Shown here piece after piece: positions 1,496 to 6,373 of a DNA stretch of 64,000 nucleotides. The translations under genes and the position numbers were made by a program. Where the stretch lies: contig JAQTYI010000002.1 in NCBI GenBank assembly GCA_028688325.1, forward strand, positions 76,379 through 140,378, read 5' to 3'. Origin of the DNA: Candidatus Portnoybacteria bacterium (GTDB lineage Bacteria > Patescibacteriota > Minisyncoccia > Portnoybacterales > GWB1-42-6). The first letter of the stretch is position 1, and every line of letters begins with the position of its first letter. Below the pieces are notes generated by a model. That model made no database searches. It was not told the origin of the DNA and worked only from the letters and a program-made list of their open reading frames with translations.

Positions 1496-3589
1496 TTATT
1501 CCAATATCGCCTTAATCCTGCGCACACCGGCAGATGATGCTTCTTCCTTTACGATCTTAAATTTACCCAGCGCTCCAGTGCGCTCGGCGTGCGGCCCGCC
1601 GCAAATTTCGCGGCTGAATGCGCCTTCGACAAGCTCAGGCGATAAATCTTTATCCCCTGAGCGACCCCGCATTTGCGGGGGAGTCGAAGGGTTTTCTATT
1701 GTATAAACTTTCACCTTGTTTCCGTATTTGGCGTCAAATACGCCTGTTGCCCCGGACTCTTTCGCTTTCTCCAAATCCATCTCTTCGCAAACCACCGGCA
1801 AATCATTTTTTATCTGCTCATTAACGATATCTTCGACTTGCTTGATCTGCTCGGGCGTCATTTTCTGGCCGTAGGAAAAATCAAAGCGCAAGCGCTCGGG
1901 TGTGATGTTGGAGCCCTTTTGCGACACTTGCTCGCCCAAGACCTTTTTCAACGCCGCCAGCATCAAATGCGCGGCCGTGTGGTATTTCACCGTCGCCTCG
2001 CTGGCATCCGCCAGCCCGCCCTTGAACATCCCGGCCGAAGCGGCGCGGGAAAGTTCCTGGTGTTTTTTAAATTCTTCCTCAAACTCTTTCTTGAACTCTT
2101 TTTCATTTACAAGTAATGCCCTACCTGCTAATTCTTCTTGTATCATTTCCAGAGGAAACCCGTATGTCTGATATATAAAAAACGCTTTTTTTGCATCTAC
2201 TCTATTAAATTCTTTTATTTCTGCGCCCAAAGATATCTTCTGAGTACTACCAATAAGAAGCATCTTATTTAATTCTTTCAATCCCTGCTCCAGCGTTTCT
2301 TTGAATTTATTTTCTTCCTTGACTAACTGATGGATGATGAATTCCTTATTCTTTTCCAATTCCGGATAAGTATCTTTATATATTCTGACAACTTCGCCTG
2401 CGAGTTCAAAAGAAAAATTTTCTTTGATGCCCAGAGAAAAAGCGTTGCGCACCGCGCGGCGAATGAGCCGGCGCAAAACATAACCCGCGCCGACATTGGA
2501 AGGCGTGATCCTTTTTTCATCGCCCAGAATGAAAGCGGCGGCCTTGATATGGTCGGCGATAATGCGCATCGCGCGCGTTATATCTTCTCTCTCCTTTTGT
2601 AAATCTAACCCCCCTGCGCCCCCCTTTAAAAGGGGGGGAGATACAGGTTTTTCTCCCCCCTTATGCAAAAGGGGGGTTGGGGGGTTAATTTCCCCTCTTC
2701 TTAAAGGAGAGGGCTGGGACGAGATTATACCGTATTTTTTCCCCGACAATTCCTCTATCTTTCCTATCAGCGGCCAAAAGAGTTCGTTATCAAAAGCGTC
2801 TCTTTTACCATTTAACACGGATGCCGTCCGCTCCAATCCCATCCCTGTGTCCACATTCTTTTGCTTTAATTTTTCAAACTTGCCCGCCGTGATTTTATTG
2901 AATTCCATAAAAACATCATTCCAAACTTCCATCACTCGAAAATCATTAATTTCTTCGTCAAAAGTTTTTTGTAAAATGCCAAGTTGCGACTCGGTATCAT
3001 AAAACATTTCCGTGGCCGGACCGCACGGCCCGGTTTGCCCGGCCGGCCCCCACCAGTTATCTTTAGTAGGCATTGGAAAAATTCGGTAATTTTTATTACC
3101 GGCAATTTTTGTATTGTATGAGCAAACTTCTGCCTCAATCCCAGCAGAAGCAAAAACTTTTTTCCAAACTTCAATTGCTTCCGTATCCTGTTCGCTATTT
3201 TCATCACCCATAAAAACCGTAACATACAGCCGCTGCGGGTCCATTCCCAGCCATTCCTTGCTAGTCAAAAATTCCCAGCTCCACTCAATCGCCTCTTTCT
3301 TAAAATAATCGCCCAGCGACCAGTTACCAAGCATCTCAAAAAAGGTCAGATGACGGTTATCACCAACATCATCAATATCAGAAGTGCGAATACATTTTTG
3401 TGCATCACAAAGCCGCGAACTGGCCGGATGCTTTTCGCCCATAAGATAGGGCACCAGCGGATGCATGCCCGCGGTAGTAAAAAGCACGGTCGGGTCGTTT
3501 TCGGGAATCAAAGAAGCCGAGGGGATTGTCGTATGGCCCTTTGTCTTGAAAAATTCCAGATATTTTTGCCTCAATTCTTTTGCGGTCAT
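1496..3589 (-). CDS. alaS: Alanine--tRNA ligase (short form, 697 aa), carrying in-frame repeat insertions.
   Basis: N-terminal class II AlaRS catalytic motifs (FFKTKGHTTIPSASLIP, FTTAGMHPLVPY, RTSDIDDVGDNRHLTFFEMLGNWSLGDYFK). C-terminal editing-domain motifs (HTAAHLMLAAL, CGGPH). Confidence 0.9.
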   Translation of the reverse strand: MTAKELRQKYLEFFKTKGHTTIPSASLIPENDPTVLFTTAGMHPLVPYLMGEKHPASSRLCDAQKCIRTSDIDDVGDNRHLTFFEMLGNWSLGDYFKKEAIEWSWEFLTSKEWLGMDPQRLYVTVFMGDENSEQDTEAIEVWKKVFASAGIEAEVCSYNTKIAGNKNYRIFPMPTKDNWWGPAGQTGPCGPATEMFYDTESQLGILQKTFDEEINDFRVMEVWNDVFMEFNKITAGKFEKLKQKNVDTGMGLERTASVLNGKRDAFDNELFWPLIGKIEELSGKKYGIISSQPSPLRRGEINPPTPLLHKGGEKPVSPPLLKGGAGGLDLQKEREDITRAMRIIADHIKAAAFILGDEKRITPSNVGAGYVLRRLIRRAVRNAFSLGIKENFSFELAGEVVRIYKDTYPELEKNKEFIIHQLVKEENKFKETLEQGLKELNKMLLIGSTQKISLGAEIKEFNRVDAKKAFFIYQTYGFPLEMIQEELAGRALLVNEKEFKKEFEEEFKKHQELSRAASAGMFKGGLADASEATVKYHTAAHLMLAALKKVLGEQVSQKGSNITPERLRFDFSYGQKMTPEQIKQVEDIVNEQIKNDLPVVCEEMDLEKAKESGATGVFDAKYGNKVKVYTIENPSTPPQMRGRSGDKDLSPELVEGAFSREICGGPHAERTGALGKFKIVKEEASSAGVRRIKAILE
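1653..1693. repeat. GC hairpin insertion in the alaS editing domain (ccctgagcga-ccccgcatttgcggggg-agtcgaaggg), related to the CTGAGCG/CGAAGG family.
   Basis: Palindrome ccccgcatttgcgggg flanked by ctgagcga / tcgaagg arms; encodes an extra STPPQMRGRSGDKD-type segment just before the CGGPH motif. Confidence 0.55.
2607..2718. repeat. Three tandem GC-stem hairpin units inserted in frame in alaS, encoding SPLRRGEINPPTPLLHKGGEKPVSPPLLKGGAGG.
   Basis: cccccctttaaaaggggggg, ccccccttatgcaaaagggggg and ccctcttcttaaaggagaggg units, each a C-run / T(A/T)A-loop / G-run palindrome. Confidence 0.7.
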
Positions 3590-3661
3590 TCTCGTTTAAT
3601 CTTAACAATTCAAATTCGTTTAGTAAATACGGCGATTGTCGTTTTAAAATAAATAAAGCTC

Positions 3662-3690
3662 TTGACTTCAAAAATAACTTGTGCTAAATT
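3662..3690 (+). promoter_or_regulatory. Sigma70-like promoter (TTGACT-17-TAAATT, TGn-extended) driving a non-coding ~460-nt region.
   Basis: ttgact tcaaaaataacttgtgc taaatt. Confidence 0.5.
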
Positions 3691-3697
3691 ATAAATA

Positions 3698-4157
3698 ATT
3701 CATCGTGTTCTTTCAATTCGGGAGCAATCCCAGAAAGGAGAATGCTTATTTGCTTGTTTCGGTCCTCAGTATAACTCTCGCTTTGGCCTGATATCCGTAA
3801 AAATCGTATCGGGAAAAGCGAATTTGAGGCAACCGGCCCGGATGGCCACAACCAAAGGGAGGGACTATTATGTTTCTACGAGCCGAACTTTGGCCCCCAT
3901 TTTGCCCGCATTATTTTGCCAGTTAGAACAATCTTCTAAGGCAAAGTGGGGGCTGGGAAATTCCCCGGACTATTTACAAGGCAAAAAACCGAATATCGTT
4001 CCTTGTCCGCCTTCCGCGCGGCAAAAAATGGACATCGCTTATCCGCGATGCCGTCCCTAATCCCCATTCATGATGCCTGGCTTTGTCCAAGCAATAAACA
4101 TTGAATCGCGAGGCGGGACAAATTCAAGGGCTCCCCTGAAAAGGAGCCCTTTTTATT
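3698..4157 (+). ncRNA. Candidate non-coding transcript of unknown class, bounded by a promoter and an intrinsic terminator.
   Basis: No ORF with an SD; promoter at 3662-3690; terminator hairpin gggctcc-cctgaaaa-ggagccc + T-tract at 4128-4158. I could not match RNase P or tmRNA motifs. Confidence 0.3.
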
Positions 4158-4158
4158 T
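4128..4158 (+). terminator. Rho-independent terminator (T-tract overlaps the mnmA stop codon).
   Basis: gggctcc cctgaaaa ggagccc tttttattt. Confidence 0.65.
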
Positions 4159-5512
4159 ACAGAATAATTCCTCCTCCCAAAACCTCTCCTCCTTTATATA
4201 ATACCGCGCTTTGCCCGGGCGTTACAGCCCGCTGGGGCTTGGCAAAAACCACAAACGACTTGTGCCCCGACCGCAGCCGGATAGCGGCCCGCGCCCCTTT
4301 GCCCTGATATCTTATCTTAACCTTGCAGCTCAAAGGTAATTTCGGCGAATTGCCGCTCACCCAGTTGATATCGCCGACGAACATTTCTTTCTGCAATAGA
4401 TCTTTTTTATTACTGCTCACATATAAAATATTTTTCTTCGGGTCTTTTTTAACGACATAAAAAGGGCCCGGCCCGCCAATGCTTGCCCGCTGGCCGATGG
4501 TAAAAAGCGGCAAACCGGCATGCTGCCCCAAGATTGACTCTTTTGTCATCCCGGGCTTGACCCGGGATCCAGGCCCCTGGATTCCCGCCTCCAGTTTATC
4601 CCGCACTTGATGCGGGGCGGGAATGACAGATGCAAAAATAATTTTCCCTGGCTTCAATTTCAAGTGCTTTTTTAAAAAAGCATTGTAGTCCCCCGCAAAA
4701 CAGATATCGAATGACTGATGCGCCTGATGAGGCAGCTGCCATTTTTTGGCCAGCCCGTAAACTTCTTCTTTGGTATATCCGCCAAGCGGAAAAAGCACCC
4801 GGCTAATTTGACCTTGGTTTAAAAGGTGCAAAAAATACGACTGATCCTTCTGTTTGTCTTTGGCGGTGAAAAGTTTATACCCTAAGCTGTCATCCTGAGC
4901 GATAGCGAAGGATCTCCCGCGCATGCGGGCCGACATTCGGCGAAGATTCTTCGCTTCACTCAGAATGACACTCATAGATTTTATTTGCGCATAATGGCCC
5001 GTAGCGATATAATCCGCGCCCAGTTTTTTGGCGCGCGCCAAAAACAGCCCGAATTTTATCCGGGGATTGCAGACCACGCAGGGATTGGGCGTTCTGCCCG
5101 CGCGAAGCTCGGCCAGAAAATAGTCCACGACCTCGCGCTTGAATTCTTTGGAAAAATCAAAAATGTAAAAGGGGATGCCCAATTTTCCGGCCACCAGCCG
5201 CGCGGCCGCTTCGCTTTCCGCGGAGCAGCAAGCATTTTCCGATCCGCGTAGATCCGCGTCCTCAAGATCCGCGTCTATCCGCGGTTTCCAGAAACGCATA
5301 AAAACCCCGGCCACATCATAGCCCTGCTCTTTAAGCAAAGCCGCGGCCACCGAAGAATCAACTCCCCCGGATAAGCCGACAAAGACACGCTTGCCGGCGC
5401 CTCCGGCTTTCCCGGAGCGTAATCGAGGAGATAAGCCCGCCGATGCCATTTTTCCTTCATTTTTTTGCATACCAGATAGTAGAAATTCGGCTGTGTATAA
5501 AATCCGCCTCAA
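4157..5512 (-). CDS. mnmA: tRNA-specific 2-thiouridylase MnmA, 451 aa, expanded by three in-frame repeat insertions.
   Basis: PP-loop VGLSGGVDSSVAAALL, then GVFMRFW ... C ... LGIPFY, KDQSYFL and a C-terminal MnmA beta-barrel. Length exceeds the typical ~360 aa because of inserts at 4544-4628, 4889-4970 and 5241-5284. Confidence 0.8.
   Translation of the reverse strand: MRRILYTAEFLLSGMQKNEGKMASAGLSPRLRSGKAGGAGKRVFVGLSGGVDSSVAAALLKEQGYDVAGVFMRFWKPRIDADLEDADLRGSENACCSAESEAAARLVAGKLGIPFYIFDFSKEFKREVVDYFLAELRAGRTPNPCVVCNPRIKFGLFLARAKKLGADYIATGHYAQIKSMSVILSEAKNLRRMSARMRGRSFAIAQDDSLGYKLFTAKDKQKDQSYFLHLLNQGQISRVLFPLGGYTKEEVYGLAKKWQLPHQAHQSFDICFAGDYNAFLKKHLKLKPGKIIFASVIPAPHQVRDKLEAGIQGPGSRVKPGMTKESILGQHAGLPLFTIGQRASIGGPGPFYVVKKDPKKNILYVSSNKKDLLQKEMFVGDINWVSGNSPKLPLSCKVKIRYQGKGARAAIRLRSGHKSFVVFAKPQRAVTPGQSAVLYKGGEVLGGGIIL
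4544..4628. mobile_element. MITE-like palindromic element, family A (TGTCATCCCGGG ... CGGGAATGACA), inserted in frame in mnmA.
   Basis: Terminal inverted repeats tgtcatcccggg / cgggaatgaca, with an internal gacccgggatccagg-N-cctggattcccgcc module shared with the copy at 24614-24733. Confidence 0.7.
4889..4970. mobile_element. MITE-like element, family B (GTCATCCTGAGCGATAGCGAAGGATC ... GATTCTTCGCTTCACTCAGAATGAC), in frame in mnmA.
   Basis: 26-bp imperfect terminal inverted repeats around a cccgcgcatgcggg palindrome. 82 bp, not a multiple of 3, so the in-frame junction is not resolved. Confidence 0.7.
5241..5284. repeat. Short tandem repeat GATCCGCGT x3 (plus a partial copy) inside mnmA, encoding RIDADLEDADLRGS.
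   Basis: gatccgcgtagatccgcgtcctcaagatccgcgtctatccgcgg. Confidence 0.7.
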
Positions 5513-5720: not shown

Positions 5721-5790
5721 CATCCGAATGCTCCTAATGGAATTCGGATGGGCGCTTTCGGATAATGTCCTGAGCGGGGCGAAGGACTTT
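5721..5790. repeat. Degenerate family-B-like element plus a 9-bp-stem hairpin in the efp 5' region.
   Basis: catccgaat ... attcggatg hairpin (5721-5750) and gtcctgagcggggcgaaggac (5767-5787). Confidence 0.5.
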
Positions 5791-5806
5791 GCGCTATTTG
5801 GATGCT

Positions 5807-6373
5807 ATGATCAACTACAACGAACTCAAACCGGGTGTTTTTTTCGTGATGGACGGCGAACCCTATGAAGTCCTGGAATTCGGCTTTATGCGCATGCAGC
5901 AAAGAAAGCCGGTCGCCCAGACCAAGATCAAAAATATGCTCACCGGCAAGGTACTTAACCGCAATTTCCAGCACACCGACAGCTTCCAGGAAGCGGAGAT
6001 AGATTATAAAAAAGTTAAATTTTTATACGCCCACCGCGACAAATTCGTTTTCTGCGAGATGGATAATCCCTCGGCGCGCTTTGAGCTTTCCCAAGAAGCC
6101 ATCGGCGACAAGGCAAAATTTTTCAAACCCAATTCGGAAGTTGAGGTCGTGAAATTCGAAGATAAGCTCATCAATGTCGAGCTGCCCATAAAAATGCAGT
6201 TTAAGGTCATTGAAGCTCCCCCGTCCATTAAAGGCAACACTGCCCAGGGCGGCAACAAGGCCGTGAAAATCGAGACCGGCGCCATGATCAATGCGCCTCT
6301 CTTTGTTGAAGAAGGCGACATTATCGAGGTTAACACCCAAACGGGCGAATACTCCGGAAGAGTGAACAAATAG
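5807..6373 (+). CDS. efp: Elongation factor P.
   Basis: MINYNELKPGVFFVMDGEPYEVLEF ... three-domain EF-P architecture. The start is trimmed from the track ORF (5789) to the Met that aligns with EF-P N-termini. Confidence 0.9.
   Translation: MINYNELKPGVFFVMDGEPYEVLEFGFMRMQQRKPVAQTKIKNMLTGKVLNRNFQHTDSFQEAEIDYKKVKFLYAHRDKFVFCEMDNPSARFELSQEAIGDKAKFFKPNSEVEVVKFEDKLINVELPIKMQFKVIEAPPSIKGNTAQGGNKAVKIETGAMINAPLFVEEGDIIEVNTQTGEYSGRVNK

What the first reader, a model, noticed from the sequence alone, without database searches (positions are those of the whole stretch)
3662..4158. Promoter-to-terminator ~460-nt region with no credible ORF: candidate structured ncRNA
A TGn-extended promoter (TTGACT-17-TAAATT) starts a transcript that ends at a strong intrinsic terminator. 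The only ORF inside (78 aa) lacks an SD and has odd composition. The size is in the range of RNase P RNA or tmRNA, but I could not find the P4/CR-I to CR-IV RNase P motifs or a tmRNA T-arm and tag frame. It may be a divergent RNase P RNA, another housekeeping RNA, or a lineage-specific sRNA.
Basis: partly seen in the sequence, partly recalled or inferred. Interest (0 to 1): 0.5.

Follow-up and report, generated by a model that had tools for sequence, protein, structure and literature searches.

The report
Lineage-specific structured RNA gene beside alaS
The region is most likely a real non-coding RNA gene of about 460 nt, with its own promoter and terminator, shared by a few related Patescibacteria (CPR) genomes; it matches no known RNA family and its function is unknown.

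Summary
A TGn-extended promoter (3662-3690) and a strong intrinsic terminator (4126-4158) bracket about 465 nt between the divergent alaS and the convergent mnmA. The region has gene-like GC (0.48, against about 0.33 in true spacers).

It is not RNase P RNA, tmRNA, 6S, SRP RNA, a T-box or an intron-containing tRNA. Rfam 15 and ARAGORN find nothing in the window or in five homologous loci.

Five other distinct copies, 358-646 nt, were found in related Patescibacteria contigs. All sit in the same place and keep the same promoter (TTGAC-N15-TGnTAAATT, TATATT in L081). All end in a hairpin followed by TTTTT(T)ATTT.

No reading frame is conserved. Hairpins H1-H3 fold better on the + strand and carry G.U pairs that work only on that strand, plus a few compensatory changes.

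The most conserved 3' block (4007-4052) is better read as a minus-strand terminator for mnmA. If so, the RNA's last 130 nt or so lie antisense to the mnmA 3' UTR.

The gene is missing where mnmA and alaS abut in two nested relatives, so it is dispensable at this locus.

Verdict: a probable new, narrowly distributed structured ncRNA of unknown function. The evidence is moderate: six sequences and no expression data.

The parts
3662..3690 (+). Sigma-70-type promoter: -35 TTGACT (3662-3667), 17-nt spacer, TG (3682-3683), -10 TAAATT (3685-3690). Predicted transcription start near 3697.
   Evidence: The same TTGAC-N15-TGnTA(A/T)ATT is found at the 5' edge of all five homologs.
3705..3745 (+). H1: stem GUGUUCUUU / GGAGAAUGC enclosing a GCAA-capped hairpin GGGA-GCAA-UCCC. 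Contains the conserved purine tract CCCAGAAAGGAG.
   Evidence: Present in 5 of 6 homologs and more stable on + than on - in 4 of 5. The inner hairpin varies (GCAA, GAAA, UUUUAAA, CCGG..CCGG) while staying paired.
3746..3859 (+). Variable insert domain with a long hairpin at about 3773-3822, ending in AUGGCCACAAC (3842-3852).
   Evidence: A homologous insert occupies the same site in L141 and is absent in L089 and L123.
3860..3877 (+). H2: hairpin AGGGAC-UAUUAU-GUUUCU, with an SD-like purine arm and an AUG in the loop.
   Evidence: G.U pairs make it form only on + (-4.9 vs 0.0 kcal/mol here; -10.1 vs -2.0 in L089 and L141).
3892..3954 (+). H3: long hairpin with a 15-bp basal stem GGCCCCCAUUUUGCC / GGCAAAGUGGGGGCU and a branched tip.
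   Evidence: Conserved in 4 homologs, with 3 pairs changed on both sides and wobble pairs valid only on +. More stable on + in 4 of 4.
3955..3966 (+). H4: small hairpin GGGAAAUUCCCC.
   Evidence: Shared with L089 and L141, where it is followed by AUUUUUU and is called terminator-like on the RNA strand.
3985..3995 (+). Conserved single-stranded motif AAAACCGAAUA (AAAACUGAAUA in the homologs).
   Evidence: Invariant apart from the C/U in all six.
4007..4052 (-). H5 (4007-4021), an A-run (4022-4030, a U-run on the - strand) and H6 (4030-4052, loop UUAUCC). On the minus strand this is a canonical intrinsic terminator, GGCAUCGC-GGAUAA-GCGAUGUC followed by CAUUUUUUG. It is the probable terminator of mnmA.
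   Evidence: minus-strand terminator 4052..4031. The same call is made in all five homologs on the mnmA/alaS strand. H6 is slightly more stable on - in 5 of 6.
4053..4125 (+). 3' spacer with the conserved GCAAUAAACAUU (4091-4102) and AUCGCGAGG (4105-4113). It lies antisense to the mnmA 3' UTR.
4126..4158 (+). Intrinsic terminator of the RNA: AAGGGCUCC-CCUGAAAA-GGAGCCCUU followed by UUUAUUU. The U-tail overlaps the mnmA stop codon (4157-4159 on -).
   Evidence: All six homologs end in a hairpin followed by TTTTT(T)ATTT.

Best explanation
Window 3662-4158 (+) is a stand-alone gene for a structured non-coding RNA of about 460 nt.

What the sequence comparison shows: a strong extended -10 promoter fires away from alaS. 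The transcript folds into a conserved set of + strand hairpins (H1-H4) with an optional insert domain. It then runs through a conserved A-rich 3' section and stops at its own intrinsic terminator, exactly at the stop codon of the convergent mnmA. The most conserved 3' block (H5, A-run, H6) is, on the opposite strand, a classical terminator.

What I infer: mnmA transcripts end at that minus-strand terminator, inside the RNA gene. The two transcripts would then be complementary over about 130 nt. The module would also insulate alaS from mnmA read-through, whereas the two genes are directly adjacent in relatives that lack it.

The function is not established. My best guess is that the body (H1-H4) acts as a trans-acting or protein-binding RNA, because it presents or sequesters a conserved purine tract, AGAAAGGAGG-like. 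The antisense overlap with the mnmA 3' UTR would be a secondary, cis effect.
For: Promoter and terminator are confirmed in the window.

Five further distinct copies carry the same promoter, the same orientation and the same neighbours (alaS divergent, mnmA convergent): L081, L082/L083, L089, L123 and L141/L147. The AlaRS proteins of these relatives are only 62-72% identical to the window's, so neutral DNA should no longer align.

GC in the region is 0.48, against 0.33-0.37 in spacers.

No frame is conserved. tblastx similarity is confined to 16-20-aa patches that appear in all frames and on both strands. The 121-codon stop-free frame in the window has no counterpart in the homologs, where the longest in that frame is 34-74 codons and the longest in any + frame is 45-85.

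H1, H2 and H3 are more stable on + than on - in nearly every homolog. The consensus fold of H2-H4 is -21.5 kcal/mol on + against -12.0 on -. On the H2-H4 alignment 88% of cells are paired against 50-60% when partners are slid, and 4 pairs change on both sides.

The minus-strand terminator at H6 is called by the scanner in all six loci.
Against: There are only six distinct sequences, and only four for H2-H4, so the covariation is weak statistically. There are no expression data.

Whole-sequence MFE is slightly lower on the minus strand in all six.

The blocks shared by all six are the promoter, the AAAACYGAAUA motif, the H5/H6 block and the terminator. The H5/H6 block is better explained by the other strand. 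L081 and L082 do not match the H2-H4 model.

The gene is missing between mnmA and alaS in L087 and L153, which nest within the clade. It is therefore dispensable there, or has moved.

No target, partner or catalytic motif was identified.
Confidence: 0.62

Rival explanations
1. There is no functional + strand RNA. The region is a spacer that holds the tandem minus-strand terminators of mnmA and promoter or regulatory DNA for alaS. The + 'promoter' gives at most spurious transcription.
For: The 3' block shared by all six is a canonical minus-strand terminator. The interior is very variable, from 358 to 646 nt. The element is absent in L087 and L153. MFE is slightly lower on -.
Against: The canonical TTGAC-N15-TGnTA(A/T)ATT promoter points away from alaS and is kept in 6 of 6 copies, at variable distance from alaS (73 to about 350 nt). 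alaS has its own separate TTGGCA-17-TGnTAAAWT promoter in L089 and L082. H1-H3 are + strand-specific and conserved. The + terminator is conserved. GC is gene-like.
Confidence: 0.15
2. It acts mainly as a cis-antisense RNA. Its 3' end overlaps the mnmA 3' UTR and terminator, so that convergent transcription or RNA duplex formation tunes mnmA mRNA termination or stability.
For: The predicted overlap is about 130 nt (4025-4158). The + terminator abuts the mnmA stop codon. The convergent arrangement is conserved in all six.
Against: This does not explain the conserved 5' and central hairpins. In L141, L089 and L123 the mnmA stop lies about 140 nt beyond the RNA's terminator, so the geometry is not fixed. 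Overlapping convergent terminators are common without any regulatory role (general knowledge).
Confidence: 0.12
3. It is an mRNA for a micropeptide of 10-19 aa that starts at the AUG in the H2 loop (window 3871: MFLRAELWPPFCPHYFAS). The upstream purine tract would act as a rare strong SD.
For: A GGAGG-like tract lies 4-8 nt upstream of an AUG in five of six homologs. The peptides begin MVFL or MFL in four.
Against: Peptide length and sequence are not conserved. The codons that are conserved form the 3' arm of H2. Genes of this genome do not use SD. L082 and L081 give unrelated peptides. tblastx shows no frame-specific conservation.
Confidence: 0.06
4. It is a highly divergent housekeeping RNA: RNase P RNA, tmRNA, 6S or SRP RNA. 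tmRNA was the tempting candidate, because the block GCGGCAAAAAAUG followed by a hairpin recalls (from memory) the pre-tag region of E. coli tmRNA, and because AlaRS charges tmRNA.
For: The size range and the modular insertions fit. The gene lies next to alaS. In L141 and L082 a short frame (ASLIRDAVA*, ASLIRDAGSESPVL*) follows the A-run (read from the sequences).
Against: There is no Rfam hit to any of these families at E<=10, in the window or in five homolog loci. ARAGORN finds no tmRNA or tRNA-like domain. There is no T-arm or acceptor pairing. The putative tag frame shifts or has no stop in L089, L123 and the window. The A-run and hairpin are explained as a minus-strand terminator. The gene is absent in L087 and L153.
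Confidence: 0.04

Closest known systems
Orphan large or medium structured bacterial ncRNAs known only from comparative genomics (for example the raiA, OLE, ROOL and GOLLD motifs in Rfam)
   Same: Several hundred nucleotides long, independently transcribed, non-coding, built of modular hairpins with variable insert domains, restricted to certain lineages, and of unknown biochemical function.
   Different: No sequence or structure match to any of them. Far fewer representatives (six) and much weaker covariation support. No conserved long-range or pseudoknot architecture was demonstrated.
tmRNA (SsrA)
   Same: Similar size. An A-rich single strand followed by a hairpin resembles (from memory) the region before the tag ORF. 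The gene lies next to the gene of the enzyme that charges tmRNA.
   Different: No tRNA-like domain, no conserved tag frame or stop, no hit with ARAGORN or the Rfam tmRNA models. The look-alike block is a terminator on the opposite strand.
Convergent gene pairs with overlapping 3' ends (cis-antisense or 'excludon'-type arrangements)
   Same: The predicted transcript overlaps the 3' UTR of the convergent mnmA by about 130 nt. Each strand carries its own terminator inside the other's transcript.
   Different: The overlap is limited to the untranslated 3' ends. The conserved structured body lies outside the overlap. No regulatory effect has been shown.
Group I intron-containing tRNA genes of Patescibacteria (PMC13011429)
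   Same: The same phylum. These are promoter-to-terminator units of a few hundred nt without an ORF that standard tRNA finders miss.
   Different: No RF00028 match at E<=10 and no recognisable tRNA exons, D-arm or T-arm.

Membership tests
Bacterial RNase P RNA (RF00010/RF00011) | Match to the covariance model; P4 pseudoknot with the CR-I (GAGGAAAGUCC) and CR-V (ACAGAA..GGCUUA) motifs | tested here: not met
   No hit at the gathering score or at E<=10. The motifs are absent on reading the sequence.
Bacterial RNase P RNA (RF00010/RF00011) | Essential, so present in every genome of the clade | tested here: inconclusive
   Absent between mnmA and alaS in L087 and L153, but the rest of those genomes could not be searched.
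tmRNA | tRNA-like domain: paired 5' and 3' ends, G.U in the acceptor, T-arm, CCA | tested here: not met
   ARAGORN finds none in the window or in six homolog loci. No Rfam tmRNA, alpha, beta or cyano tmRNA hit.
tmRNA | Conserved short tag reading frame with a resume codon and an in-frame stop | tested here: not met
   The frames after the A-run differ between homologs. L123 has no stop before the terminator. The window and L089 are shifted (read from the sequences).
6S RNA / SRP RNA | Match to the Rfam models; a rod with a central bubble (6S) or the domain IV motif (SRP) | tested here: not met
   No hits. The MFE structures are multi-hairpin, with no 5'-3' closing rod.
T-box leader of alaS | Lies on the alaS strand upstream of the gene and carries the T-box sequence and Stem I | tested here: not met
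   The conserved promoter and helices are on the opposite strand. There is no RF00230 hit on either strand.
tRNA gene interrupted by a group I intron (Patescibacteria 35/36 type) | Group I catalytic core flanked by tRNA half-exons | tested here: not met
   No RF00028 hit at E<=10 and no tRNA found by ARAGORN. The gpI_bact_tRNA model of PMC13011429 was not available.
Protein-coding small gene | A reading frame conserved among homologs | tested here: not met
   similarity is frame-independent, and long stop-free frames are not shared.
Independent ncRNA gene (generic) | Own promoter and own intrinsic terminator, conserved among homologs | tested here: met
   (6 of 6).
Independent ncRNA gene (generic) | Conserved secondary structure with compensatory changes on the transcribed strand | tested here: met
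   H1-H3. Support is modest: 4 sequences, 4 pairs changed on both sides, 88% of cells paired against 50-60% in slid controls.
Independent ncRNA gene (generic) | A discrete transcript is detected | not testable with these tools
   No RNA-seq data were available.

The most novel reading that the evidence does not exclude
This is the founding member of a new class of large (360-650 nt), modular, structured ncRNAs in streamlined Patescibacteria genomes. It would have a real biochemical role, for example as an RNP scaffold or a ribosome- or protein-binding RNA. Its conserved AGAAAGGAGG-like tract is notable because this genome's genes otherwise lack Shine-Dalgarno sequences.
Probability: 0.2. Interest if true: 0.65.

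Novelty: new member of a known kind. Interest (0 to 1): 0.4.

Why it matters
CPR/Patescibacteria genomes are about 1 Mb and tightly packed. A non-coding transcription unit of 0.4-0.6 kb that keeps its promoter, terminator and several hairpins across lineages whose AlaRS is only 62-72% identical to the window's is therefore unlikely to be junk. Large bacterial ncRNAs without an assigned function are few, and some have led to new biology. This one would add a CPR-specific example. It also gives a worked case of convergent, interlocked terminators splitting an mnmA-alaS pair that is contiguous in relatives. The narrow distribution and the thin evidence keep the present interest moderate.

Tried and rejected
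Known RNA families. Rfam at the gathering score on the whole window gave 0 hits. Rfam at E<=10 on 3500-4300 and on five homolog loci gave only scattered noise, such as Phe_leader at E=0.25 on the terminator and miRNA models. ARAGORN found no tRNA or tmRNA in the window or the homolog loci.

tmRNA. The A-run and hairpin resemble the pre-tag region of E. coli tmRNA (from memory). I rejected this: there is no tRNA-like domain, the tag frames are inconsistent, and the block is a minus-strand terminator.

Group I intron in a tRNA. This idea came from PMC13011429. I rejected it: there is no intron-core hit and there are no tRNA exons.

Coding. tblastn and tblastx of all internal ORFs against the homologs, and a scan for stop-free frames, show no conserved frame. 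The window's 121-codon open frame is unique to the window.

Repeat or mobile element. There is no second copy in the window. There is no match in the phage or plasmid collections or in viral contigs.

Wider distribution. blastn and nhmmer against 80 alaS loci from GTDB species gave nothing. Covariance model R1 (H2-H4), run against the window and 41 loci that include about 25 CPR alaS neighbourhoods, recovered only its training sequences plus L147, a duplicate of L141. The metagenome pattern scan gave 60 hits, of which only 5 loci are true homologs and only two sequences are new, L123 and L141/L147.

Origin of replication. DnaA-box counts are not enriched and the GC skew does not switch.

Target search. 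The complement of the conserved AAAACYGAAUA motif gives no enrichment in the window.

Minus-strand promoter. The 11/12-match promoter at 3716..3688 is not conserved in the homologs. They carry a separate TTGGCA-17-TGnTAAAWT alaS promoter.

Full report
SETTING. The window reads like a Patescibacteria (CPR) genome. The AlaRS encoded at 1496-3589 (-) is at best 55% identical to any GTDB species representative, and the top hits are Moraniibacteriota, Magasanikbacteria, Parcubacteria and Uhrbacteria MAGs. In the large protein collection the best identity is 72%. The finding lies between the start of alaS (3589, - strand) and the stop of mnmA (4157-5512, - strand). EF-P follows at 5789-6373.

1. THE OBSERVATION. 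The scanner reports TTGACT-17-TAAATT with TG before the -10 at 3662-3690 (+). It also reports a 9-bp (6 G-C) hairpin with a T-run at 4126-4151 (+). GC is 0.48 across 3700-4100. It is 0.33-0.37 in the flanking spacer (3501-3800) and in other spacers of the window. The fold z-score is -3.4 on + and -3.2 on -.

Two corrections apply. Several ORFs of 38-78 aa lie inside, not one. The missing SD is not informative, because 40 of 42 long ORFs in the window lack an SD and are preceded by A/T-rich runs.

2. IT IS NOT A KNOWN RNA. Rfam 15 gives no hit at the gathering score in the whole 64 kb. At E<=10 on 3500-4300 it gives only noise. The same holds for five homologous loci. ARAGORN finds no tRNA or tmRNA in the window or the homologs. 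The phage, plasmid and viral collections hold nothing similar.

3. HOMOLOGS. I fetched contigs that encode the closest AlaRS relatives and ran one metagenome pattern scan. Together they gave five further distinct copies: L081, L082 (=L083/L100), L089 (=L144), L123 and L141 (=L147).

In every one the unit sits between a divergent alaS and the 3' end of a convergent mnmA. Each starts with TTGAC-N15-TGnTA(A/T)ATT and ends in a hairpin followed by TTTTT(T)ATTT. The length from the -10 to the terminator is 358-646 nt. The independent scanner calls the promoter in all five homologs. Where an AlaRS is held, it is only 62-72% identical to the window's, so unconstrained DNA would not be alignable.

The unit is absent in L087 and L153, where mnmA and alaS are 41 and 5 nt apart. 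In an AlaRS NJ tree these two nest among the carriers. The RNA gene is therefore ancestral to the clade and was later lost or moved. Nothing similar lies upstream of alaS in 80 more distant genomes. Covariance model R1 found no further member among the window and 41 loci.

4. NON-CODING. tblastn and tblastx between the window and the homologs give only 16-20-residue patches. These appear equally in several frames and on both strands, which is the signature of nucleotide conservation rather than protein conservation. The window has a 121-codon stop-free frame. In the homologs the longest stop-free stretch in that frame is 34-74 codons, and the longest in any + frame is 45-85, so the long frame is not shared.

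Short ORFs follow an SD-like tract (MFLRAELWPPFCPHYFAS here; MVFLHYFGAI in L089 and L141; MVFLLRLYRLGDVYRLSIC in L123). They differ in length and sequence. Their conserved first codons are the 3' arm of hairpin H2.

5. ANATOMY AND STRAND. The shared modules, in window coordinates, are:
- H1, 3705-3745: GUUCUUUYAA, a capped hairpin, then RGAAAGGA. The cap is GCAA here, GAAA in L123, UUUUAAA in L089 and L141.
- An optional insert of about 110-135 nt, 3746-3859. It is homologous to one in L141 (both end AUGGCCACAAC) and absent in L089 and L123.
- H2, 3860-3877.
- H3, 3892-3954, with a 15-bp basal stem.
- H4, 3955-3966.
- The invariant single strand AAAACYGAAUA, 3985-3995.
- H5, 4007-4021.
- An A-run, 4022-4030.
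- H6, 4030-4052.
- A 3' spacer.
- The terminator, 4126-4158.

H1, H2 and H3 contain G.U pairs that would be C.A mismatches on the other strand. They are more stable on + in 4/5, 3/4 and 4/4 homologs respectively. The RNAalifold consensus energy for H2-H4 is -21.5 kcal/mol on + against -12.0 on -. On that alignment 88% of cells are paired against 50-60% when partners are slid. Four pairs change on both sides, against a mean of 1.0 in the shuffles, and 1 of 500 shuffles reaches that number. With four sequences this is suggestive, not conclusive.

H5 and H6 behave differently. H6 is slightly more stable on - in 5 of 6 homologs and H5 in 3 of 6. On the minus strand H6 is followed by a U6-7 run, and the scanner ranks it as the top terminator on the mnmA/alaS strand in all six loci. 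I therefore read H5, the A-run and H6 as the terminator region of mnmA on the minus strand.

The two convergent transcripts would then interlock. The + RNA ends at the mnmA stop codon, and mnmA transcripts end about 130 nt inside the RNA gene.

alaS has its own conserved promoter (TTGGCA-17-TGnTAAAWT) in L089 and L082. The 11/12-match minus-strand promoter that overlaps the RNA promoter in the window is not conserved.

6. MECHANISM. Shown by sequence comparison: a conserved, oriented promoter; a conserved + terminator; + strand-specific conserved hairpins; no coding frame; a conserved minus-strand terminator inside the unit.

Inferred: the unit is transcribed as an RNA of about 460 nt. Its 3' third is antisense to the mnmA 3' UTR. 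The module separates alaS transcription from that of mnmA.

Guessed (about 0.2): the H1-H4 body works in trans as a protein- or ribosome-binding RNA. It presents a purine tract (CCCAGAAAGGAG here, AGAAAGGAGG in L141) that is alternately paired with pyrimidine arms. Such a tract is notable in a genome that does not use SD sequences.

The rivals are a non-functional spacer (0.15), a purely cis-antisense role (0.12), a micropeptide mRNA (0.06) and a divergent housekeeping RNA (0.04).

7. COMPARISON WITH WHAT IS KNOWN. The unit resembles the orphan large structured ncRNAs known from comparative genomics in size, modularity and lack of function, but it matches none of them. The resemblance of GCGGCAAAAAAUG plus a hairpin to the pre-tag region of E. 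coli tmRNA (recalled from memory), together with the alaS neighbourhood, made tmRNA worth testing. It fails on the tRNA-like domain, on the tag frame and on every model. Intron-bearing tRNA genes of Patescibacteria (PMC13011429) were considered and rejected, because there is no intron core and there are no exons.

8. VERDICT. This is a probable new, narrowly distributed structured ncRNA gene: a new member of the general kind 'orphan bacterial ncRNA'. Its housekeeping-RNA suggestions are rejected, and its 'lineage-specific sRNA' option is supported. Interest is moderate (0.4). The unit is unusual for a streamlined genome and is absent from Rfam 15, but it rests on six sequences, weak covariation, no expression data and no function.

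Noticed in passing
window 2606-2718 (inside alaS, - strand gene): Three tandem G/C-rich palindromes of the CCCCCC-TTTAAAA-GGGGGG type lie in frame within alaS (9 pattern hits against 0.16 expected). They encode a PPLLKGG-like insert. This AlaRS is 697 aa, while many relatives are 608-621 aa. The same kind of palindrome occurs in intergenic DNA upstream of alaS in L089, L081 and L086.
   Followed up: partly
window 4545-4627 (inside mnmA): An 83-nt element bounded by inverted repeats, GTCATCCCGG...CGGGAATGAC, sits inside the mnmA coding region (1 hit, 0 expected). Similar GTCATTCC...GGAATGAC elements lie just upstream of alaS in L089 and L150. It looks like a miniature repeat element that tolerates insertion into genes.
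   Followed up: partly
whole window (42 long ORFs): 40 of 42 long ORFs have no Shine-Dalgarno motif within 22 nt of the start. Starts are preceded by A/T-rich runs. The organism appears to initiate translation largely without SD pairing.
   Followed up: partly
L123 about 2160-2170, L141/L151, L089 about 725-735, L082 about 3800-3810 (just upstream of the RNA promoter's -35): A DnaA-box consensus, TTATCCACA (CTATCCACA in L089 and L082), lies about 8 nt upstream of the -35 of the RNA promoter in four homologs but not in the window. The window shows no DnaA-box enrichment and no GC-skew switch.
   Followed up: partly
L086, L150, L151, L152 (contig ends): Four independent assemblies break within about 30-450 nt upstream of alaS, at or next to the RNA locus. 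L089 and L141 differ by presence or absence of the 135-nt insert domain. Strain-level indels or repeats here may be fragmenting the assemblies.
   Followed up: no
whole window 1-64000: There is no tRNA gene and no Rfam family at the gathering score in 64 kb. GC skew is negative throughout, so the + strand is probably the lagging strand and the RNA gene would be transcribed head-on to replication.
   Followed up: no
L089 452-468 and L141 2505-2521 (RNA strand): In L089 and L141, H4 (CUGGGAAAAUUCCCCGG) is followed by AUUUUUU and is scored as terminator-like on the RNA strand. A shorter RNA isoform ending after H3/H4 is therefore possible in those genomes. The window's H4 lacks the U-run.
   Followed up: no
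window 3716..3688 (- strand): A near-consensus promoter, TTGAAA-17-TATAAT (11 of 12), points towards alaS. Its -10 overlaps the -10 of the RNA promoter. It is not conserved in the homologs, which have a separate alaS promoter.
   Followed up: partly
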